From IMG/VR virus record IMGVR_UViG_3300009790_000004, positions 32,001-96,000 of that record: a stretch of 64,000 nt of DNA. One strand, written 5' to 3'. The DNA comes from a virus. Positions 1-64,000 of the stretch are shown here, piece after piece (positions within the stretch are counted from its first letter, which is position 1; the number at the start of each line of letters is the position of its first letter). Both the position numbers and the translations under genes were made by a program. A model generated the notes under the pieces. That model was not told where the DNA came from. It saw only the letters and a list, made by a program, of their open reading frames with translations, and searched no databases.

Positions 1-301
1 TATCCCATAGAAGACCCTCGGATATTGGCCATTGATCTTCTACATTAATAATATTAGCAGATAATAGAACTACCCAGTCATATTTTGGACTCTTGTATAA
101 TACTTCTGCTACTGTATCAGGTCTTTCACCATCTTCTATTACATATTCATTAAAATTCATAGCAAACTGAAATATATCACTTTTCAGTCTTATTCTTTTG
201 AATATATTTTTAACCTCAACATATTGATTCCTCTGTCCACCTTCTTTTAGTGGATTGAGGTATTTAAAGTTAGGTAATAGATTGAAGTAAGCTACTGACA
301 T
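1..301 (-). CDS. gp53: Baseplate wedge protein gp53 (runs off the window edge)
   Basis: Manual translation from ATG at 301: MSVAYFNLLPNFKY...KNIFKR...YVIEDGERPDTVAEVLYKSPKYDWVVLLSANIINVEDQWP, a gp53-type LysM-like motif; directly downstream of gp48. Confidence 0.85.
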   Translation of the reverse strand, partial: MSVAYFNLLPNFKYLNPLKEGGQRNQYVEVKNIFKRIRLKSDIFQFAMNFNEYVIEDGERPDTVAEVLYKSPKYDWVVLLSANIINVEDQWPISEGLLWD

Positions 302-1290
302 TAGAAATCAATGAAATTTTCTTCATAATCTTCTCTATATATTGGCTCTAGTTCTTTAAATGCGAGATCTAATTTCATATGAACAGGAGTACCCATTTGA
401 TCTCCATAGGTTGAATACTGACCAGAACCAGTATAGTTAACTCCTACAGATTCTAAAGCACATATCTTAAATTTATTTAAGAAAGGATGTACACCAGATC
501 CTTTTCTGTAAGAAATCCTGAATACATCAGGACTTTGTAGAAATGCCATATCACCTTTAACTCTTTTGGGTGATGAACGCATTTTTAATTGCATGAACAT
601 TTCTTTAACTACTTTTGCTTCTTTATTATCTCTAGGAGCTATATCCCATCTAAATTGGAAAGGTCTTAAAGATACACTACTGAAAAGAAGTTCTAAGTTT
701 TGGTTTATTATTTGTCCTGATTGCCTTGCCATTATTTGATTGGCATTAATATTACTACCTGCTATTGCGTTTACTACACCAGCAGATGCTTTTGCCCTTA
801 CATAGTTTTGTAAACGAGTAGTATCTGATCCTGCAGCTTGTGCTTGCTTCATTGTATATGATGCACCTTCATCCCAACCAGCACCTATATCTTCAAGCAT
901 ATTACCATTATTGGATATTGCCTTATTTAATCCTGCTTCAACAGCACCTACACCAGCTCCTGTTAATGCATTCATATTTCCACCTTGCCAACCAACATTA
1001 TTCTTTGAACCTATTCCATTAGGCACTGGAAGTATAAAATTTCTTTCTGATTGAGCACCTTTTAGTTTACTAAATGCACCAGCACTACCAGAAAAACTAG
1101 GAGTTCCACCTTCTTTATATTTAATTGCTTCTATTAAAAAATAGTCAGTCTCAGCATCCATAATATCATATGGATATCTAAGTATTCCTGAATTTGCAGC
1201 ATTATTATTTCTGTTTGATCTAGAGGTTAGTCCTCCAACCAAAGCATTCTTGCCAAAATTCAATCCTTTTTTTATTAAACCAAAAGGCAT
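301..1290 (-). CDS. gp48: Baseplate tail-tube cap gp48
   Basis: N-terminal LRYP, then INQNLELLFSSVSLRPFQFRW, HPFLNKFKICAL..VNYT and LAFKELEP; synteny with gp53 and gp4. Confidence 0.8.
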   Translation of the reverse strand: MPFGLIKKGLNFGKNALVGGLTSRSNRNNNAANSGILRYPYDIMDAETDYFLIEAIKYKEGGTPSFSGSAGAFSKLKGAQSERNFILPVPNGIGSKNNVGWQGGNMNALTGAGVGAVEAGLNKAISNNGNMLEDIGAGWDEGASYTMKQAQAAGSDTTRLQNYVRAKASAGVVNAIAGSNINANQIMARQSGQIINQNLELLFSSVSLRPFQFRWDIAPRDNKEAKVVKEMFMQLKMRSSPKRVKGDMAFLQSPDVFRISYRKGSGVHPFLNKFKICALESVGVNYTGSGQYSTYGDQMGTPVHMKLDLAFKELEPIYREDYEENFIDF

Positions 1291-1309
1291 GATTGATACT
1301 ATTTTTACT

Positions 1310-1316
1310 TATTTAT
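1310..1316 (-). promoter_or_regulatory. T4-type late promoter (ATAAATA) for gp48-gp53
   Basis: ATAAATA on the minus strand about 20 nt upstream of the gp48 ATG. Confidence 0.55.
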
Positions 1317-2118: not shown

Positions 2119-2119
2119 T

Positions 2120-2956: not shown

Positions 2957-3631
2957 ATGGGATTAGCACAGGATTTGAAGTCGGGGACTAAACAGTCTCA
3001 TTCGGCAGCAGAGAATACTAAGTTTGTTAGTTCATTTCTCAAAGGTGTAGTAAGTAGAGAAGGTTATAGGCAACTTGTTGCTAACTATTACTTCATCTAT
3101 CATGCTATGGAAGTAGAAGTTCTAAGATTGAAAGATGATCCTATTGTGGGACCATTGAACATGAAGGAACTTTATAGACATCGTAGTCTAGCAAAAGACT
3201 GTGAGTATTTTTATGGTAGGGGCTGGGCAAAGAATATCTATCCTACTGATGCATGTCAACAGTATGTTAACCGTATTCGTGAAGTAGCACATGACCAGAC
3301 TGAACTTCTTGTAGGTCACCACTATACTCGTTATCTTGGTGATTTGTCTGGAGGTCAGATCCTTAGAAATATTGCTCAGAATGCTCTTAAGTTAGATGAT
3401 GGTGGTTTAGACTTCTATGAGTTTCCTAATATAGAGAATAAGAAGGAGTTTAAAGATCATTATCGTGCTACACTAAATACACTGCCTGTGTCTGAATCAC
3501 AGGTCTCTGCTATTGTTTCAGAGGCAAACTATGCATTTCGTTTGAATATGTTTATGTTTGATGAGTTGGATGGCAATGCGTTCAAGTCTACAATAGCTTA
3601 CCTATTCGGACTATTTAATAAAAAAGATTGA
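2957..3631 (+). CDS. ho1: Heme oxygenase (auxiliary metabolic gene)
   Basis: LKSGTKQSHSAAEN (proximal His), HHYTRYLGDLSGGQIL, EANYAFRLN; extended -10 TGcTATAAT at 2924-2932. Confidence 0.95.
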   Translation: MGLAQDLKSGTKQSHSAAENTKFVSSFLKGVVSREGYRQLVANYYFIYHAMEVEVLRLKDDPIVGPLNMKELYRHRSLAKDCEYFYGRGWAKNIYPTDACQQYVNRIREVAHDQTELLVGHHYTRYLGDLSGGQILRNIAQNALKLDDGGLDFYEFPNIENKKEFKDHYRATLNTLPVSESQVSAIVSEANYAFRLNMFMFDELDGNAFKSTIAYLFGLFNKKD

Positions 3632-28900: not shown

Positions 28901-28902
28901 CA

Positions 28903-28957
28903 GACAGTGAAATAAGTGTCCATTCCACCCCATTCTGAGGTCAAGATCGTGTATAAT
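28903..28957 (+). promoter_or_regulatory. Palindrome + -10 cassette, copy 1 (predicted leaderless transcript)
   Basis: GACAGT-gaaata-AGTGTC (28903-20), 31 nt, TATAAT (28952-57), ATG at 28964. Confidence 0.7.
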
Positions 28958-28963
28958 AGAAGT

Positions 28964-34471: not shown

Positions 34472-34527
34472 ACCAGTTAACAAAGTGTCACCCAACCCCT
34501 TCACAGGGGTTTTTTTATTGCTATAAT
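34472..34527 (+). promoter_or_regulatory. Palindrome + terminator + -10 cassette, copy 3, driving the structured RNA
   Basis: ACCAGT-taacaa-AGTGTC (34472-89), 32 nt, TGcTATAAT (34522-27). Confidence 0.75.
34494..34516 (+). terminator. Rho-independent terminator
   Basis: AACCCCT-tcac-AGGGGTT followed by a T run. Confidence 0.8.
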
Positions 34528-34746: not shown

Positions 34747-34767
34747 CAATATTGTACACAATTCCAC

Positions 34768-35472
34768 ATGAATTCCACACTCGCTGGCAAAAAAGCAAAA
34801 GCAGATGGACACAAATATGAGGTGGATTGTGTTGCAATGTTAAATAAACTCTTCGGTGGCGATCATGCTACTGATGGGAGACCACAGACTAAAGTAGATG
34901 TATATGATAAGGAAGGAGTTAACACTTATTCAGTCAAAAATGTATCAAAAAACCACACTCAAGTGGCATTATTGTCCAGTCAAAAGTTTATAGATCATTT
35001 CAATCTTACTGATTCTGGATGTGAACGATTCATCAATATGTTCTTTGGATATTATAACAAAGAACTACAATCTATTGTTGAAAGTAAGCATCCAGAATTG
35101 TCTCTAAGTGATGCTGAGATAAGACAAAATAGGGTCTATAAGAATAACATATCAGATAGTATTATAGATGAGTTCTTAACATTTATGAACTCAAATAAGA
35201 TAGAGATATTTGATATTATTGTGAGGCGAGGGTTCAATGGTGATGCAGTTAATCATATAATATGGAGGAATAAAATAACAACTTCTGTTAATATTATAGA
35301 TGTTGAATCCCTTGCTTCATTGGTAGAAAATGGTATTTGGAAAATAAATAATACTACATTAGAGTTTAGAACTGCTGATAACATTAAACTATTTCATTTA
35401 CAAATGAAAGGAAGTGGCAAGAAATATAATAGTGGTTATCATGGTATGATGTTTCACATGTATTGGAGTTAA
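34768..35472 (+). CDS. HinP1I/MspI-like type II restriction endonuclease homolog (no methyltransferase in the window)
   Basis: LAGKKAKADGHKYE, TKVDV, YSVKN..KNHTQV, FDIIVRRG, HLQMKGSG, MMFHM follow, in order, the HinP1I motifs as I recall them (GSKTAKDGFKNE, KSDI, IQVK..GFNQI, DILRGRG, IQRKGG, LQFKI). Confidence 0.7.
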   Translation: MNSTLAGKKAKADGHKYEVDCVAMLNKLFGGDHATDGRPQTKVDVYDKEGVNTYSVKNVSKNHTQVALLSSQKFIDHFNLTDSGCERFINMFFGYYNKELQSIVESKHPELSLSDAEIRQNRVYKNNISDSIIDEFLTFMNSNKIEIFDIIVRRGFNGDAVNHIIWRNKITTSVNIIDVESLASLVENGIWKINNTTLEFRTADNIKLFHLQMKGSGKKYNSGYHGMMFHMYWS

Positions 35473-35752
35473 TTAATGCTAACAACTACTAATACTGATT
35501 ATCACTCTGAGTATTGGATTATGAATCAACATATACATCCAAATGCTAGACTAGATAATAAAGAAGACATTAAATCTATAGATAATAATATTAGTAACCC
35601 AAACCGTAATTTATTAATTAAGTATGTCAATTAAGGGTACACACGACATTTATCACGAAGAAATAGAGATATGGAAGAGTAGATTTTACTCTCTATATCA
35701 TTGGGTAGAGCAACAAGAATTTAGCGAAGAGTTCCCATTATCTGAGGTAGTG

Positions 35753-35808
35753 GACACTCAAGAAACTGTCTATACATCATCAAAATACAAATAACATAAT
35801 GCTATACT
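35753..35808 (+). promoter_or_regulatory. Palindrome + -10 cassette, copy 4
   Basis: GACACT-caagaa-ACTGTC (35753-70), 32 nt, TGcTATACT (35803-08). Confidence 0.7.
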
Positions 35809-35831
35809 GACTATATGGTCAGGAAAACAAT

Positions 35832-37634: not shown

Positions 37635-37986
37635 GTTAGATCAACGAGGTGTTAGAACTGCCCCAACTGATGTCAAAGCACAACAAGCGGATGTTCTTAA
37701 TTATACCAAGTTTCTAACACAAATACTTGAGCAACATTACATTCAACAGTATCCAAATTCAGGCAACAAGTTAACATTTACTATTGAAACTGGTAGAAGA
37801 TATTTAAAGATAATTCAAGACAATTCAGTACACGCATTTGTTGATAAAACTACAGGTGATGTATACAAACCAGCAGGTTGGAAATCACCAGCAAAGATAG
37901 TAAGATATAATTTATTAGATGAACAATCACGCATTAAGTGTTATCAATGTGCTGATTGGGCAGGTGGTTATCTATATTTAAGATAG
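37612..37986 (+). CDS. Conserved phage hypothetical protein
   Basis: GRRYLKII..SVHAFVD..TGDVYKPAGWKSPAK..RYNL...ADWAGGYLY. Confidence 0.7.
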   Translation: MPNTPPIELDQRGVRTAPTDVKAQQADVLNYTKFLTQILEQHYIQQYPNSGNKLTFTIETGRRYLKIIQDNSVHAFVDKTTGDVYKPAGWKSPAKIVRYNLLDEQSRIKCYQCADWAGGYLYLR

Positions 37987-53200: not shown

Positions 53201-56200
53201 TCTGTATTATGCTATAGAAAAGGGTGGATACATCACAACTAGTGAAACTGATGTATTATACGGAAATCAGATAAAATATACAAATAGTGGATATAATGGA
53301 AAGCAATATATTGCTACTGGGGTTGCTGGAACATCATTTACTGCTAATATTGTTGCGGAACCAGAAAAATCTCGATATACGCAATCTGATTGCGAGGATT
53401 TGTATTATACCCATATAGGTGTTGCAGCAACTGGTGGTGTATCAAAAATCAAGATTAATAATGCTGGATTTGGATATAAGAAGCTTCCTGCAGTAACTTC
53501 TATAGGATCTAGTGGTATTAGTGCGGAATTAGAGTTATTTGGGAATAATGTCAACCTATTGGAGGATGTTAGTGTTCCTACAGATGTTTATGGTTATCCT
53601 GCAGATAATACATTAAAACCAGATGCATTCTTGCCTAGGATTCTTCAAATTAAAAATGCAAGTAAGGTTCTCTCTGCAAGTGTAACTTTTGGTGGAAAAT
53701 CATACCTTAATGCACCATCTCTTGCTGTATATGATAAAACAACTGGAGAAATAGTTAATAACGGTCTTCTTACTGCGGAATTAAGTGATTCTGCTGTGAA
53801 TAAGGTTAATGTTGTTGTTGAACCTAGAGGATTAACAGGTAACGATTATGGTATTGCTCCTTTAAGAAATAGTAACGGAATTAGTGTTATTGAAGCATTT
53901 TCTGATGTAGGAATTCTTACATGTAAGATTACTACTCCTATTCTTGGATATGATACAGAACCCTTCACTGCTGGCGATATTGTTTATCTTGAGGGTATAG
54001 AATTTACTGCTGGATCTGGAGATGGATTCAACTCTGGTGATTATAAATTTGTTGACTTTGAAATTGCTGATTATAATAGTGCAACTAATCCAAGAGAAGT
54101 CACATTCGCTTATACTGGATTATCTACTAATCCTGGAATTGGAGCAACTGTTGTTCCTGGATTTGGTCAGATTGTAAAATCTGGTGATCTTGCAAGATTT
54201 AGTGCATTAAAGTCATTCTCTGAATTTAGAATCAATGAACCATTAAGAAGAAACAGTGATTTATATACAGATTTGGTAATGACTGATCTTGATACCAATA
54301 CTGGTATTATGGTTGTTAGTGGATCTCTAAACCTTGAAATTGATGATCAATTAACAGGAACTAATAGTGGTGATGTATGCGAAGTACAGGCTATAACAGA
54401 ATTTGATGGATATTTTGATATTTCATCTACAATTGATACTAATGTAGGTTGGTCTGATAATATTGGACTAATTGGTGATAATAATCAATTCCTACCAGAT
54501 AATGATTATTATCAAAATATGTCTTATGCTATAGAAAGTGAAAAGACATATGCGGATTTAATAACTTATGTTAATGATATAGTACACCCTGCAGGATTTA
54601 AAAACTTTGCAAATACTCAGATTTTAACAAAAGGTGATGCTGGAGAATCATTTGTTCCTGCTGCTGATGCTGGTGGATTGGTTCTTGATTTTGTTAGTGA
54701 TCCACTTAGAATTGACGCTATCTACAATTATGATATTTCTAGAGATGCCAATTCTGCAAATAATCTTTCTAAATTCTTAGAATTGAAGCAGACAAGACTT
54801 GCTGACTTTATTCTATGTAAGACTAATAGAGTTCTTTTGCATGATGATATTAGTCCTCAATTCATTAGTAATGAATCTAATGATTTGAGTGATAGTAGAG
54901 TTATTGCTGCTACTCTTGCTGGTAGATATTTCTCTAGGTATCTTGTACAAACAATACATGATGCACAGGATCCACTTAAAAATCATTATCAGATGAATGA
55001 GTTGATTCTGATCACATCTGGTGGTGATACCTATTTGGTTCAGAAGAGTGCTCTTAACAATACAAACCAAGTTGGTTTAGCTACTGGATACGGAGAATTC
55101 TTTGCTCAGTATAATGTTAATAATGGTCAAACTCAGGTAAGAATCAAACCTTACGAACCATTTGATACCAATTATGATATTAAAGCAATGCAGCAAGGTT
55201 TTGCTGATGCTACTGGTACTGGTCAAACATCATTGGGTAATGCAGAAGTTAGAAGTGTTAATATTAGTGTAGGAACTGCTACAACTACTCAAATTGTTGG
55301 ATTTAATACAGCCAATTTAGCTGGTTCTCATGGGCATATTGCTGTTATTAATAAATCTGAAAACAAAGTTGATTATCATGAGTTGATATTACAGCATGAT
55401 GGCACTGACACATATATGACCGAAGTTGCCTCTTTCAATAATAGGCAAAGTCTTGGAGGAATATCTTCTCCACAATTTATGGGAACATTTACTTCCGAGA
55501 TTGATAGTGGAGTAGTTAAACTCAATTATATTCATAGCGAATCACAGAGTATTGATCTTAGATGTAAGTTTATGTCCTTCAATCCTGTTGGATATGGAAC
55601 TACTTCTGTTAAGCACTTTAATATTCCATTTACTCCAGAAGGATCAGAAAGAAGTGGAAGAATTATTGTAGGATCTTCTGCAACAACAGGAATTGCTACT
55701 ATATGCGGAATCACTTCATTTACCGATTTATCATTTAAATCTACAGTTTCTGTATCTTATGGAAATACTCAAACATTCCATCAGATTTATGTTTTATCTG
55801 ATCCACATAAAGTAGATACATTCTTATCTCAAGGGCCTATTGCTGCTGTTGGAACTACCACGGGTGTTGGTTCATTTGGTGCTGAATTTAGTGGTAAGAA
55901 TGTTAATTTAGAGTTTTATCCAGATCCAGGAGTAACGGGTATTGTTAGTATCTTCTCTTATAGTGAAGTAATTTACAAACAAAATGATCCTAATGGACTT
56001 CTTGTTGGTATTGGTTCATTTGACTACGGACAAGTATTTGAGAATGTAACCCAAAATACTTATCTGGGTATAAACAATAGAAATATTAGAAAATTTGGAT
56101 TAAAGTATCAAAATACTCCAATTTATCAAAGAGCATTTAACCCTGAGAATGCTAATGAGATTGATAAAGGAACGGGACTTATTACATTAAAGCACTTCTT

Positions 56201-59200
56201 CTCTAATACAGAAAAAGTATCATATCTCCCAGATTCTAATATTGTTGGACTTGCTGCTAGTTCTCTAGAGTATAGTACTGGATACGGATCTACTGTACTT
56301 CCATCTACCTGTTATATTGTTAAATCTAATAATAATCAGTTCTATATCTCAACATCAATTACTGATGCTAGAGTAGGAAAGGCGGTTACTTTTGCAAGTG
56401 GAGTTGGTCAAGGTAATCTTCATAAGTTTACGATGGATAAGAGAGACTCTAAATCCATTATTGCTCTTAACGGATTGGTACAAAAACCACTTTCTCACAC
56501 ATCTATTACATATGATTTAGATGTTGCCGTTAATGGTTTTGTTACTTGTTTTGCTTTAAGTGGTTTAAGCACAATTACTTCTGGAGATTTATTAAAAATT
56601 GATGATGAGTATAGTATCGTTCAAACAGTTGGTTTTGGTAGTACCACTACTGGACCTATTACTGGTATTGGAACTTGGAGTCTTGTTGAAGTAGAAAGAG
56701 GAACAGTAGGTAGTTCCGCAACAGTACACTCTGCTGGATCAACTGCAAGGATCTATAGAGGTGCTTTCAATATAGTTGATAGTGACATATATTTCACAAA
56801 TGCTCCTCTTGGTGGTGACTTGGGTATGATTGACCCAGGCAACCTACCTTATCCTAGAGCATCATTTGGTGGAAGAACTTATTTAAGACAAGATTATTCA
56901 ACTAACCAAATATTTGATGACAACTCAGATGGTTTTGATGGTTTAGAAAATATATTCCCACTAACATCTACAGGTGTTGCTGTAACTGGTATTGGTTCAA
57001 CTGGTGGTAATGGAGTTCTGTTTATTAACAGTATGTTCCAAGCACCATTTGGTGAGAACAACGAAGGTGTTGCAAACTTCAAGATTATTGAGCAAAGTCT
57101 TGGTGGTATTGCTAGTGTTAACTATACAGGTATTACTTCGTTTGGATATACAGATTTAATAATTGATGTGGATGATGTCAACCAGAACCAATTGCCTAGA
57201 GGTGGAATTATTGTTTCTGTTGCTTCTACTCCAGGACAAGGATATGCTCCATTTAAGGGTGCTAAGGTTCATGTAACCACTGGTGCAGCTGGTGCTATTA
57301 CTGGTATTACTGGTATATCAACAACAGACGACTTCATAAATGTAGAAAGTGCTATTTACGATACTAGAACTGGATTTGTAACGGTATCTACCGCACAGAA
57401 TCATAGATTGGGTGTTGAAGATTTTGCTAAGTTGGTTGGTTTAGAATTTACATGTAATGGATATCAGCATACTTATATTTCTGATGCTGGTGCAGACTCT
57501 GCTTTAGAAGTAGGTGGTAATTATCCACACCAATGGGTAACAAGTTCATCAAACTCTGTTGAATTTGGTGGAAGTTATGCACATCAATGGGTAAGTGCTA
57601 ATAGTAATGCAGTTAATGTACAGAGTGGTTCTCAATCAGGAACACAGAAGTCACCTAGCAGTGGAACATACGATCCTGCTACTGGAGTATTGTCATTGAC
57701 ATTTGGTGGCAATCATAATATGTCTACAAGTGATACTATTACACTTGATAACAATTCATTATTCTTCAAGTGTGCTAGAGACAATTATGCAACTACTCAT
57801 TCATATCCTCGGTCTGGATCCGATTATATCTCTGGAATAACAACTGCTGTTACAGTAACTTCAACAACTTCATTTACAATTAATGTCGGCACAACACCTT
57901 TACAGTACTTTACTCCTACTGCTGGTGATTATAATGGTGCTACTGGTAATCTTACATTAACTATTGGATCTGCTGGTGTTGCTGCTGCTGTAGCAAATAA
58001 TCTTAAGGTTGGTATTATCACAAGTTCTTTAACCTTTAGATGTGCTAGAGATGGATATGCTACAGATCATGTATATCCTCGTACAACTGACCCAATTAAT
58101 AACACTGTAGTGACCATTGGATCGACTACAGCAACTACAATTACACTTCCCGTTGGAATATCCACTAATGTTCGTTATGGCGTTTATAGTGCTGACTACA
58201 GTGGAGCAACAGGAATTATAAGAATTAGTACAGGAAGTTCTGCTTCTCAGGATGCAAATCAACCATTCGCTGTTGGCGATCTTGTTGGTATCGGAACGAA
58301 TACTCTTAAGTTTACATGTGCTAAGGACAATCACGCAACTATTCATACATATCCACGCTCATCAGATCCTGCACACAATGTAATGTTGTCTGTTGCATCA
58401 ACATCTCAAACTGAATTTACAGTTGATGTTGGTAAATCTGGTCTTGGTTATGGTAACACTATTGGTATAACATCATTTGTTTATGACCATATCAGTGGCA
58501 TTGCAACAGTACTTACTGTAACCCCTCACGGTTTCTCTGATCCAAGTATGGTCGGTATTGCAACTAATGCATTGACATTTACTTGCGAAATGGATGGATA
58601 TAAGTCCAACCATTTATATCCAAGATCATCTGATCCTATAAACAATAAGTTCTTAGAAATACGCAATGTAACTAGAGACGAATTTGATGTTAATGTTGGA
58701 ATATCAACTCAAGTAACATATACACCCACAAATGCTGTATATGATCCTATTGCTGGCATCATGACGATGACTGTTGGATCTCACAACATTATGTCGGGTA
58801 CTAATATTAAGATTGCTCAAGAATCACTTAACTTTAAGTGTGCTATGGATGGTCTTTCTACCACTAAGTCCTATCCTAGAGTAACTGATCCATATTTTGA
58901 TACTGCTATTTCTGTTGCATCAACTACTGCAACAGGCATTGCAATAACTGTAGGAACATCACCTACTGTTAATTACAGCATTACTACTGCAACTTACACT
59001 CCATCTACGGGTATTGTAACTGCTACGATTGGTCAACATGCACTTAAAGATGGAACTTCTATTAAGTTAAAAGACGGATCTTTAATCTTTAGATGTGCAA
59101 CAGATGGTTATGCATCTACTTCAACATATCCTAGAAGCACTATTGACACTCAAACCATTAATGGTGCTACTTATGATGCCAATGTAGGTATCATGACAGT

Positions 59201-62200
59201 CACAGTAATTCCTGGTGGTCGTTTAATACATGATGGAGACTTTGTAAGATTTGATAACGACTCTATTAGATTTACTTGTGATATGGATGGTGGAACATCT
59301 ACTAAGTCTTATCCAAGATCTACTGATCCTTATAGTGGTAAGTGGATGCCTATTACAGGTATTGGAACTACTAGTTTTGCAGTTCAAGTAGGTAAGTCAC
59401 CCATACAACCTTTTGGTATCACCAGTGCGATCTATGACCCCACTGCTGGTATTGTGACAGTTACTATACCTGATCATACTTTAATGACTGGTACTAGCAT
59501 AAGATTGTCACCTGAATCATTTGCATTTAGATGTGGTCTTGATACTTATCAAAGTGTACACAGATATCCTAGAGCAACTGATACTGTTGGTTACAATACT
59601 GCAGTTTCAATTGCTTCTACTACTGCAAGCACTATTTCATTCCAGATACTTCCAAGTCAACCATCAAGTAATGTATCAACTCATCATCATGTACCTAATG
59701 ATAAGTTAAGTCCAATTGGTGCAAGTTATGATCCTGTTGTTGGTATCATGACTGTTACAGCTAACAATCATGGACTTTCAAATGGTGATTATGTCAAGTT
59801 TGATGATGGATCAGTTAGCTTTACATGTACTAGAGATAATAATAAGTCTGTTCATGCATATCCTAGAACAAAGGATCCTTATCACAATAACTGGATTAAA
59901 GTTTCTAATGTGACTACAAATACATTCAGAGTGAATGGTATGAGGTCATATGACAACGCCACACATACTTTTGTATCTGGTGTATCGGATAGTATTACAA
60001 GATCTGTAATCGTCAGTGGTGGTGCGTATAATCACACCTTCGCTAGTGCTGGTGTGGGTAGTATGGATCAGAAGCGTGATAGAACTTATGATCAACCAGT
60101 TAAGATTACTGCTGGATATACAGCAGATACTATTGAAAATGCTGATTATAATCCTGTAACGGGTAATATGACTGTTACAGCAACTGGTCATGGAATGATG
60201 AATGGTGATTATGTATTATTTGAAAATAATTCTATTGCTCTTAAGTGTTCACAAGATAATTACGCTACTGTTCACACATATCCAAGAGCATCAGATCCAG
60301 TTAGCGGTGATTGGGTAGCAATTGGTAGCACAACTCTAAACACATTCGTAGTTGATGTTGGTAAGACAGCATCTGGTGATGTATACGCTCATAGTTTTGT
60401 AAGTGCAGCAACAAGTGCTATTGAATTTGGTGGAGATTATCCACATCTATTTGTAAGTGCAAGTGAAGGTGCAGTAAATGTTAAGAGTGGTGCATCAAAT
60501 GGACAAGAATTAACTCCTAATGCAGTTTCTTATGTTGCTTCTACTGGTGTTCTAACTCTAGGTTTTGCTACTTATCATGGAATGACAACTGGGGATACTA
60601 TTACACTTGATGATGACTCCTTGACTATGACATGTGCTAGGGATAATCATGGTAGTAATCATACATATCCTCGTTCAACTGATCCTATCAGTGGTGTAAC
60701 AACTGGTATTACTACTACATCAACAACACAGTTTACTCTTAATGTTGGTATTTCCACCCTAACTTGGGCAAATATTACTGGTGCAACTTATAACGGCACT
60801 ACAGGTGATATGACCTTAACTATTGGATCTGCTGCTGTTGCCGTTGCCGTAGCAAATAATCTTAAGGTTGGTATTGTCACTGATTCTATTACAATGACTT
60901 GTGATAGAGATGGTAATACTGCTCAGAAGACATATCCTCGTTTAACAGATCCTATCCACAGAAAAGTGGTATCTATTGGATCTACTGCTAATACTACAAT
61001 TACTCTTAATGTTGGTAAGTCCAATTCAGGTGATCAGTATACTCATCAGTTTGCTGGTGCAGTAGCAAATTCTCTTAGAAAACAGAATGGAACAATTACA
61101 TTCCAAGCAGGAATTGCAACTGATACTAGTGAGCATCGTTTTGATATTATGGGTGGTCATCAAGCATTAAATGCAGTCATTAGTGGTGGAAATTATGCTC
61201 ATACTTTCGTAAGTGCAGAAAGTGGTGCTGTTAAGACTGGTGGTGGATTCAACCATCGTTTTGTTAGTGGTATTGCTAGTGCTTTATATGTTGATGCTTG
61301 GTCTGGTGCTGCTCTAACTGTATCAAATGCAGTATACAATCCCGAAACTGGAATTGTAAGATTTACTGCTAAGGATCATGGATTAGTTACTCCAGAGAAT
61401 TTCAAATTTGAAGGTATTGGTGTTACATGTGCATATGGAGCTAAGACATATCCAAGTGGAGTTCAAGGTTATCATTATACAGTTAGATCAGTAGGAAATA
61501 CTACATCATTTACCACATTCGTTGGATTCTCTACTGTACAGCATGATTACACTGGTGGTGGATCAGTACAGGTTGGAGTTACTAGTAACAAATTCCCAAG
61601 TTTTGACGAAGCATATCCTGTTGCAGGAATTATTTCTGATAGATCATTTAAGGTGAATGTTGGACCTAACACTATTACACATTCTTATGTTAGTGGTGGT
61701 CAAGTTGCTCAATGGCATCCACTTACATATGGTTCTGGGTATCAAACTGGACTAGGAACTATTGGTATTGCAGTATCTTCTCCAACTGGAGGAGTAGGTG
61801 CTCAAATTAATGCAGTTGTTGGTGCTGGTGGATCTTTAATATTCAGCATTGGTGCTGGTGGAACTGGATATACTGGTGAATATGATTGTGTTCATGCTCC
61901 AGAACCAGATGGTGAGAATATGCCTATTCGTGGTTTATACAGAATAGGTGGTGGAACAGAAACTGGTGTGGGTTGTTCTATTAGTGTTCAAATTGCAGGT
62001 GTTTCCACTTCTACTGGTATTGGATCAACTTTAGCAGAAGTAACAGAATGGGAATTCACTAAGAAAGGTTATGGATTTAAGCGTGGTGATAAATTTACTG
62101 TTGCTGGTCTATCAACAGATCCTAATGCGGGTGATAATTATAAGGACTTTGAAATTGAAGTTATAGAAGTATTCACTGATCAAGTTGCTTCTTGGCAGTT

Positions 62201-63521
62201 TGGTAATATTGATTATCTTGATAATATCAAACCAAATCAAACTGGAAATCAGAAGAGATTCCCACTTTATTATCAATCTCAGTTAGTCAGTTTTGAAATT
62301 GATAGAAACGATCAAGATTCAAGAGAAATTGATCTCTCAACTGTTTTATTAGTATTCATCAACGGAGTAGTCCAAGAACCAAATAAAAATTATATCTTTA
62401 CTGGTGGTTCTGTTATAGAATTCTCTAGTGCTCCAACTGTAAATGATAATGTTGTTATTTTCTTCTATAGAGGAACAATAGGACAAGATAGTTACATTTA
62501 CGACATTAATGAAACTATCAAGGTTGGTGATACTTTAAGATTAGATAAGAGTGCTGAAATGCAACTCAACAAGGTTGTTAAAGATCAGTCAAACTTTGCT
62601 CAGATCGAAAATAGAATTATTAAGAGGATTGATAGTGCTGCTACTGTTGAAACTCCATTCTATCAAGGTCCAGGTATTAGTAATGATAACTACAAACCAC
62701 TTACTTGGACTAAGCAGAAGAAGGATCTATTTGTTGATGGTTCCTTAGTTTCTAAGGCAAGAGATTCATTTGAAGCTCAAATCAATCCATTAGGTCATAT
62801 TATTGGTGTTCTTACAACAACTGATAACTATGTCTTTGTTGACACTGTTGGTAACTTTAGAGATACTGATAATCAATTAGCAGAATCATTTGGATTACTT
62901 GCTATTGCTCCTGTTGGATTTGGTACAACAGCAGCTCCTGGAGTCAATTATGAAAATATATCTGGTGTTGAACCATTAGTTGCTGATGTTCAAGGATACA
63001 TAGGTGTGGTTACTGGTATAGGAACCACTGCTGGTATAGGAACAGATCTAGCAATTGAACTCCTAATTGATAACCAAGATTATGTTAATAGTGGAGGAGA
63101 TGCTACTGGATTGTCAACCAACTATCCATTCAGATTATATGGAACGGGCATCAATACGGTAGGAACTGCTATAACAAGTATTGATTCACATGATACTGAT
63201 ATAGTTTCTATCAGTACACATTATGGAGATAATATTTACTATGCGAGTGCAATTAGTTTCCGTAATAATGGTCGTCAGGGCATCATTACAGCAAACATAG
63301 CATCTTACTCAGATACCAGTGACATGGTTGGGGTAGGATCAACCGCATTCGCTTACGCTCACTTCACTTGGGGAAGATTTGGAAATGTCAGCAGAGCAGC
63401 TGCTCCAATCAGTCTTGATGTTAAGGGACTGTCTTATGACAACGAACTTAGCAATTTCCCTCTAGTTTTACGAAGGGGTGTCGGGCATAGAGGAACAGGA
63501 GCTCTGCCTAAACTTCTATAA
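47244..63521 (+). CDS. gp7: Giant gp7-like baseplate wedge initiator with fibre-like insertions (5425 aa)
   Basis: Between gp6 and gp8; LIPEFAKSENPLFSKFLEQYY, LYEAKGTRASFKILFKALFG, DNDYYQNMSYAI..HPAGFKNF. Confidence 0.75.
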   Translation: MIETYSPLSPRVKTYQVVSELIPEFAKSENPLFSKFLEQYYISQDFQGGPADIAENIDAYIKVDNLTTDVIRGTTTLVGTISSTDTTITVDSTDGYPQKHGLFKIDDEICGYTGLTTNSFTGVWRGFSGISTFTKQNDPSALVWEQTVAGVHTTGANVVNLSSLFLKEFYKNLKAMYTPGLEGVTLSPQLDVNNFIKEARSLYEAKGTRASFKILFKALFGVDPKINDLEKYLIKPSFANYLRRRTVSVQLISGDPSKLVGQTLFQDNDPTNPQFNEASGPISEVSNIREDYYKLSLFTGFEERGLTDGTFIVPGRSNNVGKIGIGASVITVDSTIGFSSIGNIKVGEIGTSFYQTFTYGSKSINQFFDVTPSVSIEIPSNSTVSTFNVVHGFEDGDSSKKVEMRLTGVLSDFITSRSLRNLKSTSDIKVKNLGRYISNPNINKTYDEVFFNSWIYNTSSRYQISNWGGSNFTLVGNIEKSSLKTGDRIEILRRNSEVVVAPSLIVASINASAKSISLDGTIPTLDISLDYDIRRLQDKVKSSIVPVKGGQDQLLTDINNAYIVDESKSESGKREAYVASSSLPSYTIKADRIHAVLNNPSLGGGNWDGYNSVENKYSIISFATDVPFETGDEVIYAPDPGTEVIGGLSSPSYFVEVLGSPNQIKLYASRSFIKANLPTYFTAPSTTVGRHDFILATQGTRNIFPARPIKRFILEQQLKSGKEGQTTSEVTVDGNTAMLINGIEVLNYKGADQIFYGPVDNLNVINSGILYDVQAAPNITITDAAVSVANTAGAVPVLSGIVSSIVIDPSDYDLDKVISVEIYGGNGSGAVGRALIEERFRQVYFNGISTNLGGDVSATYNTFNLDKDHNFLTGDRIVYNNNGGSNIGIATTGSSSDSLTLFSGQDYYINVWNSKVFSLHNRKSDAVIGINTILIDENAAQSNAGLHIFRTFDKNRTISRVAVEEVGSNYSNRNLFVKSVGINTFNDSIEFINHGLTDGDVLEYDNNVNPIITGLSTTKQYQVLKIDKDKFRLAEAGNKGDREPTETNYINRQNIFLDSTGIGTGYHHFKYPPIVCKVKVLTKDQQERELTATPVVRGNIKEILMYEQGANYGSTILNFPNPPIINIPFGRLGQIGLIISNGTITDAYVANGGSGYVGPPDLNVVSAATTSTGAILRSIVNDAGKITDVKVISGGVGYADTNTSVNVVPVGSEFRAEASVRALTVNKAYRLDQSEMDYLQPIGDGLAVNVVGYGNSVRSFFGDDGSGHSPIIGWAYDGNPVYGPYGLVDTNNIQSNVKKMESSYEISAASIENRPPSSQFPYGYFIDDYVYTGNGDLDEHNGRYTKTPDFPQGVYGYFATVDLLNDPQFPFFIGNTYRSQAIEENTVKGQLIDQTNFDFAGSSLVRNTQPYGLFGDGVSYDYVFQPYNTNNQVSNPSNLLEGSIESINILTGGSGYSIGDKLIFDETGTNGVGVDAEVQQLYGEPIDNITSSVTTLSDLPIKHTRQGVVFKSSPYHEFTGSDTVRITGISTYIKGLDGFHKIAVASYGSSLRDNGYTGIITDLKVEFVPPNIAVGDSIGIGTETARILSFYPNEKIVRIERYAGFTTAATGAAVTFFTSEFTVPLEVNPFESKFQNLIYFNPKEAVGVGTTVGISTSVNVSLNGVTKERSILAQSIHLPNHGFLDNDKVTFDKRGNTDLFVTDSISPYTAPSALSGDYYVINKTADTIGLKTNTSGPDLFFTTTGADKANYSFVSNYRQESATVRRSQVTVQTTKNHGLEENDRFNLIVNTGLTTGIGTSTRATVKLIDGYTIINPLEIPTSGVNSTTSIITIQDHALETGFKVLLYGAGGDSSKLPGGLEQRPYFVYKIDDDTFQLCNTDKQLKTNPPEIVGFNSTGFSGQTINPINPPVSVFRNNNIIFDLNDTSLSGANLKFFYDKNTFNEYVGTGLTSNLEVVGFGTVGVGTTNPADMAYKQINYSENLKNTLYYAIEKGGYITTSETDVLYGNQIKYTNSGYNGKQYIATGVAGTSFTANIVAEPEKSRYTQSDCEDLYYTHIGVAATGGVSKIKINNAGFGYKKLPAVTSIGSSGISAELELFGNNVNLLEDVSVPTDVYGYPADNTLKPDAFLPRILQIKNASKVLSASVTFGGKSYLNAPSLAVYDKTTGEIVNNGLLTAELSDSAVNKVNVVVEPRGLTGNDYGIAPLRNSNGISVIEAFSDVGILTCKITTPILGYDTEPFTAGDIVYLEGIEFTAGSGDGFNSGDYKFVDFEIADYNSATNPREVTFAYTGLSTNPGIGATVVPGFGQIVKSGDLARFSALKSFSEFRINEPLRRNSDLYTDLVMTDLDTNTGIMVVSGSLNLEIDDQLTGTNSGDVCEVQAITEFDGYFDISSTIDTNVGWSDNIGLIGDNNQFLPDNDYYQNMSYAIESEKTYADLITYVNDIVHPAGFKNFANTQILTKGDAGESFVPAADAGGLVLDFVSDPLRIDAIYNYDISRDANSANNLSKFLELKQTRLADFILCKTNRVLLHDDISPQFISNESNDLSDSRVIAATLAGRYFSRYLVQTIHDAQDPLKNHYQMNELILITSGGDTYLVQKSALNNTNQVGLATGYGEFFAQYNVNNGQTQVRIKPYEPFDTNYDIKAMQQGFADATGTGQTSLGNAEVRSVNISVGTATTTQIVGFNTANLAGSHGHIAVINKSENKVDYHELILQHDGTDTYMTEVASFNNRQSLGGISSPQFMGTFTSEIDSGVVKLNYIHSESQSIDLRCKFMSFNPVGYGTTSVKHFNIPFTPEGSERSGRIIVGSSATTGIATICGITSFTDLSFKSTVSVSYGNTQTFHQIYVLSDPHKVDTFLSQGPIAAVGTTTGVGSFGAEFSGKNVNLEFYPDPGVTGIVSIFSYSEVIYKQNDPNGLLVGIGSFDYGQVFENVTQNTYLGINNRNIRKFGLKYQNTPIYQRAFNPENANEIDKGTGLITLKHFFSNTEKVSYLPDSNIVGLAASSLEYSTGYGSTVLPSTCYIVKSNNNQFYISTSITDARVGKAVTFASGVGQGNLHKFTMDKRDSKSIIALNGLVQKPLSHTSITYDLDVAVNGFVTCFALSGLSTITSGDLLKIDDEYSIVQTVGFGSTTTGPITGIGTWSLVEVERGTVGSSATVHSAGSTARIYRGAFNIVDSDIYFTNAPLGGDLGMIDPGNLPYPRASFGGRTYLRQDYSTNQIFDDNSDGFDGLENIFPLTSTGVAVTGIGSTGGNGVLFINSMFQAPFGENNEGVANFKIIEQSLGGIASVNYTGITSFGYTDLIIDVDDVNQNQLPRGGIIVSVASTPGQGYAPFKGAKVHVTTGAAGAITGITGISTTDDFINVESAIYDTRTGFVTVSTAQNHRLGVEDFAKLVGLEFTCNGYQHTYISDAGADSALEVGGNYPHQWVTSSSNSVEFGGSYAHQWVSANSNAVNVQSGSQSGTQKSPSSGTYDPATGVLSLTFGGNHNMSTSDTITLDNNSLFFKCARDNYATTHSYPRSGSDYISGITTAVTVTSTTSFTINVGTTPLQYFTPTAGDYNGATGNLTLTIGSAGVAAAVANNLKVGIITSSLTFRCARDGYATDHVYPRTTDPINNTVVTIGSTTATTITLPVGISTNVRYGVYSADYSGATGIIRISTGSSASQDANQPFAVGDLVGIGTNTLKFTCAKDNHATIHTYPRSSDPAHNVMLSVASTSQTEFTVDVGKSGLGYGNTIGITSFVYDHISGIATVLTVTPHGFSDPSMVGIATNALTFTCEMDGYKSNHLYPRSSDPINNKFLEIRNVTRDEFDVNVGISTQVTYTPTNAVYDPIAGIMTMTVGSHNIMSGTNIKIAQESLNFKCAMDGLSTTKSYPRVTDPYFDTAISVASTTATGIAITVGTSPTVNYSITTATYTPSTGIVTATIGQHALKDGTSIKLKDGSLIFRCATDGYASTSTYPRSTIDTQTINGATYDANVGIMTVTVIPGGRLIHDGDFVRFDNDSIRFTCDMDGGTSTKSYPRSTDPYSGKWMPITGIGTTSFAVQVGKSPIQPFGITSAIYDPTAGIVTVTIPDHTLMTGTSIRLSPESFAFRCGLDTYQSVHRYPRATDTVGYNTAVSIASTTASTISFQILPSQPSSNVSTHHHVPNDKLSPIGASYDPVVGIMTVTANNHGLSNGDYVKFDDGSVSFTCTRDNNKSVHAYPRTKDPYHNNWIKVSNVTTNTFRVNGMRSYDNATHTFVSGVSDSITRSVIVSGGAYNHTFASAGVGSMDQKRDRTYDQPVKITAGYTADTIENADYNPVTGNMTVTATGHGMMNGDYVLFENNSIALKCSQDNYATVHTYPRASDPVSGDWVAIGSTTLNTFVVDVGKTASGDVYAHSFVSAATSAIEFGGDYPHLFVSASEGAVNVKSGASNGQELTPNAVSYVASTGVLTLGFATYHGMTTGDTITLDDDSLTMTCARDNHGSNHTYPRSTDPISGVTTGITTTSTTQFTLNVGISTLTWANITGATYNGTTGDMTLTIGSAAVAVAVANNLKVGIVTDSITMTCDRDGNTAQKTYPRLTDPIHRKVVSIGSTANTTITLNVGKSNSGDQYTHQFAGAVANSLRKQNGTITFQAGIATDTSEHRFDIMGGHQALNAVISGGNYAHTFVSAESGAVKTGGGFNHRFVSGIASALYVDAWSGAALTVSNAVYNPETGIVRFTAKDHGLVTPENFKFEGIGVTCAYGAKTYPSGVQGYHYTVRSVGNTTSFTTFVGFSTVQHDYTGGGSVQVGVTSNKFPSFDEAYPVAGIISDRSFKVNVGPNTITHSYVSGGQVAQWHPLTYGSGYQTGLGTIGIAVSSPTGGVGAQINAVVGAGGSLIFSIGAGGTGYTGEYDCVHAPEPDGENMPIRGLYRIGGGTETGVGCSISVQIAGVSTSTGIGSTLAEVTEWEFTKKGYGFKRGDKFTVAGLSTDPNAGDNYKDFEIEVIEVFTDQVASWQFGNIDYLDNIKPNQTGNQKRFPLYYQSQLVSFEIDRNDQDSREIDLSTVLLVFINGVVQEPNKNYIFTGGSVIEFSSAPTVNDNVVIFFYRGTIGQDSYIYDINETIKVGDTLRLDKSAEMQLNKVVKDQSNFAQIENRIIKRIDSAATVETPFYQGPGISNDNYKPLTWTKQKKDLFVDGSLVSKARDSFEAQINPLGHIIGVLTTTDNYVFVDTVGNFRDTDNQLAESFGLLAIAPVGFGTTAAPGVNYENISGVEPLVADVQGYIGVVTGIGTTAGIGTDLAIELLIDNQDYVNSGGDATGLSTNYPFRLYGTGINTVGTAITSIDSHDTDIVSISTHYGDNIYYASAISFRNNGRQGIITANIASYSDTSDMVGVGSTAFAYAHFTWGRFGNVSRAAAPISLDVKGLSYDNELSNFPLVLRRGVGHRGTGALPKLL
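57440..61460 (+). repeat. Intragenic array of ~85-aa domains bearing F-x-C-x-x-D...(H/K)-x-YPR-x-x-DP (12 clear, 2 degenerate)
   Basis: Counted from the translation; a 27-nt exact DNA repeat at 57990-58016 and 60849-60875. Confidence 0.85.
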
Positions 63522-63524
63522 ATA
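63517..63524 (+). promoter_or_regulatory. T4 late promoter TATAAATA for gp8
   Basis: Exact consensus overlapping the gp7 stop. Confidence 0.8.
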
Positions 63525-63557
63525 CAAAAAAGTTAGACCTTTAGTTCTACAGATGTA

Positions 63558-64000
63558 ATGGCTGCAATTATCACAGACCAATTTAGGATCATTAATGCTA
63601 ATAATTTCGTTGATTCGGTGATTAGCGGAAATAATTCCTATTATACTTTTTTAGGTCTGGCCAATCCAACAGAAACTGGATATGGGCGAACAAGTACTTG
63701 GAACAGTACTACGGTTCAGCCACCATCCCCCACAGATAGTATTAGTTACATAAACCATGTATACGATACTATGTTGTTTGGAAGAAAAGTTCTTCCTGGA
63801 GATGTTCGTAGATTAGTCCGAAAGGTTCAATGGACAAAAGGTACATCATATGACATGTACCGTCATGATTATGATGTGAATAATAGGTCACTAGTTTCTA
63901 ACTCTAGTAGACTGTATTCTGCAAACTATTATGTAATCAATAAAGACTTTAGGGTTTATATTTGTATTGACAATGGATCTGCTGGTATTACATCTACAGC
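63558..64000 (+). CDS. gp8: Baseplate wedge subunit gp8 (runs off the window edge)
   Basis: MAAIITDQFRIINANNF...YTFLG...W..GTSYDMYRHDY...ANYYVINKDFRVYICIDNG. Confidence 0.88.
   Translation, partial: MAAIITDQFRIINANNFVDSVISGNNSYYTFLGLANPTETGYGRTSTWNSTTVQPPSPTDSISYINHVYDTMLFGRKVLPGDVRRLVRKVQWTKGTSYDMYRHDYDVNNRSLVSNSSRLYSANYYVINKDFRVYICIDNGSAGITST

What the first reader, a model, noticed from the sequence alone, without database searches (positions are those of the whole stretch)
1..64000. Apparent absence of ACGT, CCGG, GCGC and CGCG across 64 kb while TCGA is common
Seen (manual scan of CpG contexts, so a few sites could have been missed): I found no ACGT, CCGG, GCGC or CGCG. Non-palindromic neighbours (ACGA, ACGG, ACGC, TCGT, GCGT, CCGT, GCGG, TCGG, CCGA) and the palindromes TCGA, GGCC, AGCT, GATC and GTAC occur repeatedly. 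Even the Pro-Gly, Ser-Gly and Thr-Gly rich genes appear never to use CCG-GGN or NCC-GGN. Knowledge: HinP1I cuts GCGC, MspI cuts CCGG and HpyCH4IV/MaeII cut ACGT. Inference: the phage may carry a methylase-free nuclease aimed at host or competitor DNA and be immune because it lacks the site. Avoidance of host restriction systems is the alternative explanation.
Basis: partly seen in the sequence, partly recalled or inferred. Interest (0 to 1): 0.75.

Follow-up and report, generated by a model that had tools for sequence, protein, structure and literature searches.

The report
Cyanophage purged of its own nuclease's site
This marine T4-like cyanophage has none of the words ACGT, CCGG, GCGC or CGCG; the loss of ACGT goes with a methylase-free restriction enzyme the phage carries, so the phage probably cuts foreign DNA while having nothing of its own to cut, whereas the other three losses also occur in relatives without that gene.

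Summary
ACGT, CCGG, GCGC and CGCG are the only 4-mers with zero copies, both in the 64-kb window and in the whole 109.8-kb contig. Synonymous-codon shuffles expect 157, 50, 32 and 21 copies.

- **The gene.** Gene 34768-35472 encodes a HinP1I/MspI-fold type IIP restriction endonuclease. No methyltransferase was found in the contig.
- **ACGT tracks the gene.** In 65 loci with a solitary copy, ACGT occurs 5 times against 3567 expected. In 17 cyanophages or loci without the gene it occurs 2435 times against 4618 expected. No other 4-mer discriminates the two groups.
- **One clean genome.** A 93%-complete 180-kb carrier lacks ACGT alone.
- **The methylase contrast.** Where the homologue is followed by an N6/N4 methyltransferase, which happens in two separate clades, ACGT is usually present.
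- **Reading.** The enzyme most likely cuts ACGT in host or rival-phage DNA, and the phage is immune because it has no site.
- **The other three words.** CCGG, GCGC and CGCG are also absent from relatives lacking the gene (P-SSM2, P-SSM7, P-SSM4, S-PM2), so their cause is separate and unresolved.

Earlier follow-ups in this scan reached the same ACGT reading on other genomes. I found no paper describing it.

The parts
1..64000 (.). Sequence with no ACGT, CCGG, GCGC or CGCG. The same holds for the full 109.8-kb contig, of which the window is 32001-96000.
   Evidence: Exact counts and Markov expectations; synonymous-codon shuffles and codon-context counts.
34768..35472 (+). Solitary HinP1I/MspI-fold type IIP restriction endonuclease (234 aa, P0001); inferred specificity ACGT.
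   Evidence: No Pfam hit. A profile of 32 homologues hits only R.HinP1I in the PDB, E 0.0075, aligning S55-x-K57 to the catalytic Q81-x-K83. The AlphaFold2 model has pLDDT 90. Its best folds are HinP1I 2fkc (E 3e-10, TM 0.68), HhaI and MspI. Invariant residues include E18, D44, S55, K57 and Q65. dN/dS is 0.14 against orthologues. Presence of the gene tracks ACGT loss.
34500..34527 (+). Promoter-like site (TTCACA, 16-nt spacer, TG-TATAAT; 11 of 12 matches) about 240 nt upstream of the nuclease start, overlapping a terminator-like hairpin of the preceding unit.
   Evidence: Consensus scan. The leader at 34534-34767 matches no Rfam family.
35473..35831 (.). Intergenic gap between the nuclease and the UvsW-type helicase gene (35832-37103). 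In S-CAM22, Sf-CH1b, S-RIM12 and eleven uncultured loci a 240-aa N6/N4 DNA methyltransferase gene directly follows the nuclease homologue; no methyltransferase follows it here.
   Evidence: tblastn with the S-CAM22 methyltransferase finds nothing in the contig. PF01555 and PF00145 are absent from the contig. The helicase is identified by Pfam.

Best explanation
Two separate things are superimposed.

(1) ACGT. The phage encodes a solitary, methylase-free, HinP1I/MspI-fold 4-base cutter. Its recognition site is most likely ACGT, plausibly cut A^CGT like its N^CGN relatives. It sits behind a strong promoter-like site among small genes next to uvsW. It would cut any unmethylated ACGT-bearing DNA in the infected cell, meaning the host chromosome and/or co-infecting phages. 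The phage has no methylase, so its only protection is to contain no ACGT. Selection has therefore removed every copy through synonymous codon choice.

(2) CCGG, GCGC and CGCG. Their absence is not caused by this gene. It is a wider trait of T4-like cyanophages: CCGG is missing from almost all Kyanoviridae tested, and GCGC and CGCG from the low-GC Prochlorococcus-type phages. It reflects selection by some other site-specific cutter, either host restriction or an unidentified phage nuclease.

Shown: the counts, the fold, the absence of a methylase in the contig, and the association across phages. Inferred: the specificity, the cleavage activity and the target.
For: Fold and active site.

Association with the gene:
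- Of 68 loci with a solitary homologue, 62 have zero ACGT; of 14 loci with an adjacent methyltransferase, 3 do (Fisher p = 2.5e-7).
- A scan of all 136 4-mer classes finds ACGT the only discriminator. Carriers have 5 observed against 3567 expected (61 of 65 loci zero). Non-carriers have 2435 against 4618 (0 of 17 zero). The observed/expected ratio between the groups is 0.003, and the next word is 0.61.
- G003 is a 179,846-bp genome, 93% complete, with a solitary nuclease and neither PF01555 nor PF00145. ACGT is its only zero 4-mer (0 against 267), while CCGG, GCGC and CGCG occur 128, 75 and 65 times.

Methylase contrast: two independent methylase-plus versus methylase-minus splits appear on the nuclease tree. 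S-CAM22, S-RIM12 and Sf-CH1b have the methylase and have ACGT, while their sister group L072-74 has neither. A methylase-bearing clade is also nested inside the solitary clade.

Controls without the gene: ten cultured myoviruses, two Prochlorococcus podoviruses and four uncultured uvsW loci keep ACGT near the CpG-adjusted expectation. Sf-CH11 lacks the gene and has 147 ACGT per 60 kb. Sf-CH1b has the nuclease-methylase pair and has 11. Both were isolated on Synechococcus WH8102, so that host does not select against ACGT.

Recognition residues: in the HinP1I alignment the inner C:G contact Q93 is kept as invariant Q65. The outer-G contact K96 is replaced by invariant L68 (residue roles from PMC7026639).

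Purifying selection: dN/dS 0.14.

Part 2: CCGG, GCGC and CGCG are zero in phages lacking the gene.
Against: No biochemistry: the specificity, and even the activity, are inferred from correlation and fold.

Exceptions to the pattern:
- The divergent solitary clade L075/L076 keeps ACGT (14 and 118 copies). It may have another specificity or a distant methylase.
- L060, L061 and L064 have the methylase yet zero ACGT.
- Four solitary loci have 1-2 ACGT.

Limits of the comparison:
- All close relatives of this phage (uvsW at least 68% identical) carry the gene, or are too short to tell. Within that clade, gene presence and phylogeny are confounded.
- The contig is only 51% complete, so a methylase elsewhere in this genome cannot be excluded, though with zero sites it would have nothing to protect.
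- Host genomes were not examined.
- The protein fails Pfam's R-HINP1I model.
Confidence: 0.7

Rival explanations
1. All four words, ACGT included, are missing because the host or hosts carry restriction systems for them. The phage nuclease is unrelated to the pattern; it may be a captured host gene, or it may have another target.
For: Palindrome avoidance through host restriction is the standard explanation for phages. CCGG, GCGC and CGCG loss is independent of the gene. Three phages isolated on Prochlorococcus NATL1A, from different genera and families, share GCGC and CGCG depletion: P-SSM2 0 and 0, P-SSM7 0 and 0, podovirus NATL1A-7 3 and 2.
Against: For ACGT, non-carriers on the same host genera, and on the same strain (Sf-CH11 against Sf-CH1b on WH8102), keep ACGT, as do Prochlorococcus podoviruses. 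ACGT is the only word separating carriers from non-carriers. Presence or absence of the linked methylase predicts ACGT presence in two independent clades. A conserved solitary nuclease under purifying selection has no role in this scenario.
Confidence: 0.1
2. CCGG, GCGC and CGCG are also enforced by phage-encoded, methylase-free nucleases. These would lie in the missing half of this genome or be unrecognisable by sequence. On this view the first reader's idea is right for all four words but involves several enzymes.
For: By analogy with ACGT. CCGG is zero across whole genomes of phages from very different hosts (S-PM2 196 kb, Syn1 191 kb, P-SSM4 178 kb). That fits a phage-intrinsic cause better than strain-specific host systems. 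The contig is 51% complete. Earlier scan notes, unchecked here, report similar lone cutters for CATG and TTAA in other cyanophages.
Against: No second restriction-type gene was recognised among about 40 annotated proteins of the contig. The only other nuclease found is a weak PD-(D/E)XK superfamily (PDDEXK_1) match beside phoH. Three candidates from gene-content comparison do not track CCGG: DUF7717, DUF4385 and a 116-aa S-PM2 ORF. Podovirus NATL2A-133 also has zero CCGG, which fits a host-side cutter.
Confidence: 0.2
3. The nuclease is real, but ACGT absence and gene presence are linked only by common descent. One ACGT-poor ancestral lineage happened to carry the gene, and the enzyme's true site is something else, or it depends on DNA modification.
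For: The closest relatives all carry the gene. Specificity is untested. The divergent solitary clade L075/L076 tolerates ACGT.
Against: Carriers span 27-81% nuclease identity, 32-43% GC and CpG observed/expected ratios of 0.2-0.9, yet all have zero ACGT. Neutral drift would restore sites quickly, since 20-77 are expected per 20 kb. Gain of the methylase coincides with ACGT presence twice. Removal of ACGT in every flanking context points to a 4-bp target.
Confidence: 0.07
4. Mutational origin: cytosine methylation at CpG followed by deamination eroded the sites, without selection by any nuclease.
For: CpG observed/expected is 0.39 with TG and CA in excess at 1.22. Aligned ACGT sites of Sf-CH11 appear mostly as ATGT or ACAT in Sf-CH1b.
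Against: Non-palindromic NCGN words are all present, 26 to 267 copies each in the contig. Exact zeros for just the palindromes require selection. No C5 methyltransferase was found in the contig or in relatives.
Confidence: 0.03

Closest known systems
R.HinP1I (G^CGC; PDB 1YNM, 2FKC), R.MspI (C^CGG; 1SA3) and R.HhaI (6UKE): monomeric PD-(D/E)XK type IIP enzymes
   Same: Best and only significant structural matches, and the only PDB sequence hit. Similar size. An N-terminal helix carries an invariant Glu, followed by D-Xn-(Q/S)-X-K. The Gln that reads the inner C:G pair in HinP1I is kept. All are 4-bp cutters built around a central CG.
   Different: 15-16% identity and no match to Pfam R-HINP1I. 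The outer-base contact K96 is replaced by Leu. The inferred site is ACGT, not GCGC or CCGG. The gene is phage-borne and here has no partner methyltransferase.
PacI of Pseudomonas alcaligenes: a solitary restriction enzyme whose own genome lacks the site (cited in Ershova et al. 2012, PMC3488263)
   Same: Self-protection by absence of the recognition site instead of methylation.
   Different: PacI has an 8-bp AT-only site (own knowledge), which would in any case be rare. Here a 4-bp word expected about 130-630 times per genome has been actively removed from phage genomes of 110-180 kb, repeatedly, across many lineages.
Virus-encoded restriction-modification systems used offensively: chlorovirus R-M against host DNA, and the Marseilleviridae GATC R-M against rival viruses (Jeudy et al., bioRxiv 10.1101/2019.12.21.884833)
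   Same: A virus-borne type II nuclease aimed at non-self DNA inside the infected cell.
   Different: Those viruses methylate their own DNA. Most cyanophage carriers have dropped the methylase and rely on a site-free genome. The cyanophages with the methylase (S-CAM22, S-RIM12, Sf-CH1b) resemble the giant-virus arrangement.
Restriction-site (short palindrome) avoidance in virulent phages, for example GATC-free staphylococcal phage K (own knowledge)
   Same: Complete loss of short palindromes through synonymous codon choice. This remains the working description for CCGG, GCGC and CGCG here.
   Different: For ACGT the selecting nuclease appears to be the phage's own, not the host's.
Phage T4 host-DNA degradation by EndoII and EndoIV, with self-protection by hydroxymethylcytosine (own knowledge)
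   Same: A T4-like phage that must distinguish its own DNA from host DNA while destroying the latter.
   Different: T4 marks its own DNA chemically. This phage would mark itself by the absence of a word.

Membership tests
HinP1I/MspI-type monomeric type IIP restriction endonucleases | Three-dimensional fold of HinP1I/MspI | tested here: met
   AlphaFold2 model with pLDDT 90. Foldseek: 2fkc E 3e-10, TM 0.68; 1ynm 7.6e-9; 6uke 2e-4; 1sa3 4.7e-4; next hit E > 0.01.
HinP1I/MspI-type monomeric type IIP restriction endonucleases | PD-(D/E)XK catalytic motif (S)D-Xn-(Q/N/E)-X-K plus an N-terminal acidic residue | tested here: met
   E18, D44, S55 and K57 are invariant in 32 homologues. S55-x-K57 aligns to HinP1I Q81-x-K83. 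Ser replaces Gln. The spacer is 10 residues, against 18 in HinP1I (own knowledge) and 11 in HhaI (PMC7026639).
HinP1I/MspI-type monomeric type IIP restriction endonucleases | Sequence-family membership (Pfam PF11463 R-HINP1I) | tested here: not met
   No Pfam family at E <= 0.01. The relationship shows only with a profile (E 0.0075), by fold, and in the language-model atlas, where an R-HINP1I cluster ranks 18th at 0.94.
HinP1I/MspI-type monomeric type IIP restriction endonucleases | Sequence-specific double-strand cleavage at a 4-bp palindrome | not testable with these tools
   Inferred from ACGT loss in every flanking context in carriers.
Type II restriction-modification system | Cognate methyltransferase encoded with the nuclease | tested here: not met
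   No PF01555, no PF00145 and no homologue of the S-CAM22 methylase in the 109.8-kb contig. None in the 93%-complete carrier G003. The feature is met in distant homologues: S-CAM22, Sf-CH1b, S-RIM12, and L060-62, 64-68, 70, 71 and 78.
Solitary restriction enzyme protected by a site-free genome (PacI type) | No methylase, and zero recognition sites in the carrier's own genome | tested here: met
   Zero ACGT in 109,782 bp here and in 179,846 bp of G003. The identity of the site with the enzyme's target is inferred.
Host-driven restriction-site avoidance | Phages of the same host share the avoidance whether or not they carry the nuclease | tested here: not met
   This is the result for ACGT. Sf-CH11 (147 per 60 kb) and Sf-CH1b (11) were both isolated on WH8102. 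S-PM2, P-SSM2, P-SSM4, P-SSM7, P-HM1 and two podoviruses keep ACGT.
Host-driven restriction-site avoidance | The avoided word matches a restriction enzyme of the host and tracks the host strain (for CCGG, GCGC, CGCG) | tested here: inconclusive
   NATL1A phages of three lineages are depleted in GCGC and CGCG. However, podovirus NATL2A-133 keeps GCGC (30 against 74 expected) while NATL2A myoviruses have none. Host genomes could not be fetched.

The most novel reading that the evidence does not exclude
Methylase-free 4-base cutters could be a general weapon of marine T4-like cyanophages against the host chromosome and, above all, against co-infecting phages. The widespread multi-palindrome purge in this family (CCGG nearly universal; GCGC, CGCG, TCGA, AGCT and GGCC variable) would then be driven largely by warfare between phages rather than by host restriction. 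'Being free of the word' would replace DNA modification as the self-mark that lets a T4-like phage without modified cytosine destroy foreign DNA.
Probability: 0.2. Interest if true: 0.85.

Novelty: new variant of a known kind. Interest (0 to 1): 0.7.

Why it matters
T4 tells its own DNA from host DNA by chemical modification. How T4-like cyanophages do so is not settled; I found no cytosine or N6/N4 methylase in this contig. These are among the most abundant viruses in the ocean.

A lone restriction enzyme paired with a genome cleared of its site offers a simple and testable answer. The enzyme can shred the host chromosome for nucleotides, or eliminate rival phages, which typically carry 300-400 ACGT sites per genome.

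The result also shows that palindrome avoidance in a phage need not report on host restriction systems. That matters for host prediction and for reading phage genome signatures.

Finally, it points to a probable new ACGT-specific enzyme lineage related to HinP1I and MspI, and a matching methylase, which may be of practical use.

Tried and rejected
- **DUF7717 (window 37612-37986) as a CCGG-linked gene.** It is present in G000 and G005 and absent from the CCGG-containing G003 and G004. But it is also present in S-SKS1, which has 174 CCGG, and absent from the CCGG-free P-RSM1 and S-RIM12. Rejected.
- **Gene-content contrast.** I looked for S-PM2 ORFs shared with P-SSM4 and Syn1 but missing from G003 and S-SKS1. 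It gave DUF4385 and a 116-aa ORF. Both are missing from several CCGG-free complete genomes. Rejected.
- **A second restriction-type gene in the contig.** Pfam and PHROG scans of about 40 proteins found only a weak PD-(D/E)XK superfamily (PDDEXK_1) match at contig 28809-29486.
- **Host genomes.** The genome-contig scan with the heme oxygenase returned only a gammaproteobacterial MAG. A psbA search was uninformative for host assignment. Host ACGT, CCGG and GCGC content and host restriction genes were therefore not examined.
- **Sf-CH11 against Sf-CH1b as a close pair.** They align over only 7 kb at about 70% identity, so they are not a tight contrast.
- **Literature.** Searches on cyanophage with CCGG, palindrome avoidance, or HpaII/MspI, and on solitary restriction enzymes, found no description of this phenomenon in cyanophages.
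- **Rfam on the nuclease leader.** No family matched.
- **Ungapped dN/dS to more distant orthologues.** Discarded as misaligned.
Full report
**What the DNA is.** The window is bases 32001-96000 of a 109,782-bp IMG/VR viral contig that CheckV rates 51% complete. It is a T4-like cyanomyovirus. It carries psbA, heme oxygenase, transaldolase, purM/N/C, thyX, phoH, gp32, baseplate and tail genes, a UvsW-type helicase and a 5425-aa ORF. Its helicase is at most 57% identical to those of cultured cyanophages.

**The observation.**
- ACGT, CCGG, GCGC and CGCG are the only 4-mers with zero copies in the window, against maximal-order Markov expectations of 68, 20, 21 and 9.
- The same four are zero in the whole contig, against 129, 33, 36 and 16.
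- Shuffling synonymous codons within 74 genes gives 157 +/- 11, 50 +/- 6, 32 +/- 5.5 and 21 +/- 4 copies. No shuffle gave fewer than 125, 34, 20 and 12.
- The removal is visible at codon level. NAC never precedes GTN (0 of 401, against 23% NAC elsewhere). ACG never precedes a T (0 of 480). CGT never follows a codon ending in A (0 of 290). NCC never precedes GGN (0 of 746).
TCGA, AGCT and GGCC are present but depleted two- to three-fold. CpG overall has an observed/expected ratio of 0.39.

**The nuclease.** The 234-aa product of 34768-35472 has no Pfam match but more than 100 homologues in marine metagenomes.
- A profile of 32 homologues hits a single PDB sequence, R.HinP1I (E 0.0075). It places S55-x-K57 on the catalytic Q81-x-K83.
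- The AlphaFold2 model has pLDDT 90. It matches HinP1I (E 3e-10, TM 0.68), HhaI endonuclease and MspI, and nothing else at E < 0.01.
- E18, D44, S55 and K57 are invariant. dN/dS against two orthologues is 0.14.
- In the same alignment, invariant Q65 falls on HinP1I Q93, which reads the inner C:G pair. Invariant L68 falls on K96, which reads the outer G (residue roles from PMC7026639). This fits an enzyme that still reads a central CG but a different outer base pair.
- A strong promoter-like site lies about 240 nt upstream.
- No methyltransferase follows the gene, and none (PF00145, PF01555) is in the contig.

**Which word goes with the gene.** I fetched 78 viral loci encoding homologues and counted 4-mers.
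- Almost every locus lacks ACGT: 0 against 20-77 expected per locus, across GC of 32-43% and CpG observed/expected of 0.2-0.9.
- CCGG, GCGC and CGCG are zero only in the low-GC subset and near expectation in many others.
- The clearest case is G003, a 179,846-bp, 93%-complete genome with a solitary copy. ACGT is its only missing 4-mer (0 against 267), while CCGG, GCGC and CGCG occur 128, 75 and 65 times. It encodes neither class of methylase.

**Controls without the gene.**
- Ten cultured myoviruses lack the gene by profile search, which rang correctly on positive controls. They carry 19-169 ACGT per 60 kb. S-PM2, P-SSM4 and Syn1 carry 309, 372 and 405 per genome.
- Two Prochlorococcus podoviruses and four uncultured uvsW loci without the gene also keep ACGT.
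- An unbiased scan of all 136 strand-symmetric 4-mer classes singles out ACGT. Solitary carriers have 5 observed against 3567 expected. Non-carriers have 2435 against 4618. The observed/expected ratio between groups is 0.003, and the next word is 0.61.

**A natural experiment.**
- In S-CAM22, S-RIM12, Sf-CH1b and eleven uncultured loci, the nuclease homologue is immediately followed by a 240-aa PF01555 (N6/N4, SPPY-motif) methyltransferase. In the two annotated records, S-CAM22 and Sf-CH1b, its start overlaps the nuclease stop.
- That methylase is 66-90% identical between the two nuclease clades, which are themselves only about 25% identical.
- On the nuclease tree these methylase-bearing forms fall in two separate places. 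In both, the methylase-bearing phages mostly contain ACGT while their methylase-free sisters have none.
- Overall, 62 of 68 methylase-free loci have zero ACGT, against 3 of 14 methylase-linked loci (Fisher p = 2.5e-7).
- Sf-CH11 (no gene, 147 ACGT per 60 kb) and Sf-CH1b (nuclease plus methylase, 11) were both isolated on Synechococcus WH8102. That host does not itself select against ACGT.

**Exceptions.**
- A divergent solitary clade (L075/L076, 24-25% identity) keeps ACGT.
- Three methylase-bearing loci have none.
- Four solitary loci have one or two.
- All phages whose helicase is at least 68% identical to this one carry the gene or are too short to tell. Within that clade, gene presence and ancestry are confounded.

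**Reading.** The simplest account is that the enzyme cuts ACGT. Removal in every flanking context means a 4-bp site. A phage that keeps the nuclease without the methylase can survive only with no ACGT. The precedent for protection by site absence is PacI (Ershova et al. 2012, PMC3488263). Here, however, the word is one expected hundreds of times and was actively purged. What the enzyme is for is inferred. It could degrade the host chromosome or exclude rival phages, as proposed for Marseilleviridae R-M systems.

**The other three words.**
- CCGG is absent from every Kyanoviridae genome I sampled that lacks the nuclease.
- GCGC is also absent from P-SSM2, P-SSM7, P-SSM4, P-SSM3 and P-HM1, and CGCG from P-SSM2 and P-SSM7.
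- This contig's pattern (all three zero) matches the two myoviruses isolated on Prochlorococcus NATL1A. A NATL1A podovirus is also poor in GCGC and CGCG (3 and 2, against 67 expected). This hints at a host-side cutter.
- The NATL2A podovirus keeps GCGC, so the picture is not clean.
- I looked for a phage gene tracking CCGG loss. DUF7717, DUF4385 and a 116-aa ORF all fail.
- The cause remains open: host restriction, or unidentified phage nucleases, possibly in the missing half of the genome.

**Prior work.** Earlier follow-ups in this scan reached the same ACGT conclusion for this nuclease family on other genomes (e1-5875374, e1-5994386). They also noted family-wide CCGG loss (e1-5357620, e1-5812362). 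I re-derived both here from my own counts. Literature searches found no published description.

Noticed in passing
Cultured relatives: P-TIM68 (L110-L112), ACG-2014d (L087-L089): P-TIM68 has a CpG observed/expected ratio of only 0.11 and 1 TCGA per 60 kb (178 expected). ACG-2014d has 0 TCGA per 60 kb (215 expected). These are further word-specific purges in cyanomyoviruses, with no cause identified.
   Followed up: no
window 1-64000 and loci L001-L059: AGCT and GGCC are strongly depleted here (AGCT 115 against 366, GGCC 17 against 40, in codon shuffles). They are nearly absent from many relatives; L001 has AGCT 4 against 66 and GGCC 1 against 20. TGTG is the most under-represented 4-mer in the window (111 against 250) and is unexplained.
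   Followed up: partly
L075, L076 (contig G002), L077: A divergent clade of the nuclease family keeps the catalytic motifs and has no adjacent methylase. It nevertheless sits in genomes with many ACGT (118 per 60 kb in G002). No 4-mer is absent there, and TCGA is the most depleted palindrome (44 against 209). It probably has another specificity or another means of protection.
   Followed up: partly
L169 (9 kb) and L177 (5.4 kb): Two short contigs have a helicase 69-74% identical to this phage's. No nuclease gene lies in the 2.5-3.6 kb upstream. ACGT is 2 against 24 expected and 0 against 13 expected. The gene may lie further off, or it may have been lost recently.
   Followed up: no
window 34534-34767: A leader of about 230 nt lies between the promoter-like site and the nuclease start codon. 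It matches no Rfam family at E <= 1.
   Followed up: partly
window 47244-63521: A single 5425-aa ORF directly follows the gp6-like baseplate gene. It is 63-71% identical over 3400-4300 residues in three related contigs, and a 2444-aa ORF lies just beyond the window.
   Followed up: no
contig 28809-29486 (just upstream of the window; L134:12809-13486): A 225-aa protein beside phoH gives a weak match to the PD-(D/E)XK nuclease superfamily (PDDEXK_1, E 1.3e-5). It is conserved in G003, G004 and G005 at 69-90% identity. It is the only other nuclease-like gene recognised in the contig.
   Followed up: no
window 2957-3631: The phage heme oxygenase's only confirmed hit in the species-representative genome collection was a Gammaproteobacteria MAG at 50% identity, not a cyanobacterium. 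This is probably a limit of the pattern-based scan.
   Followed up: no
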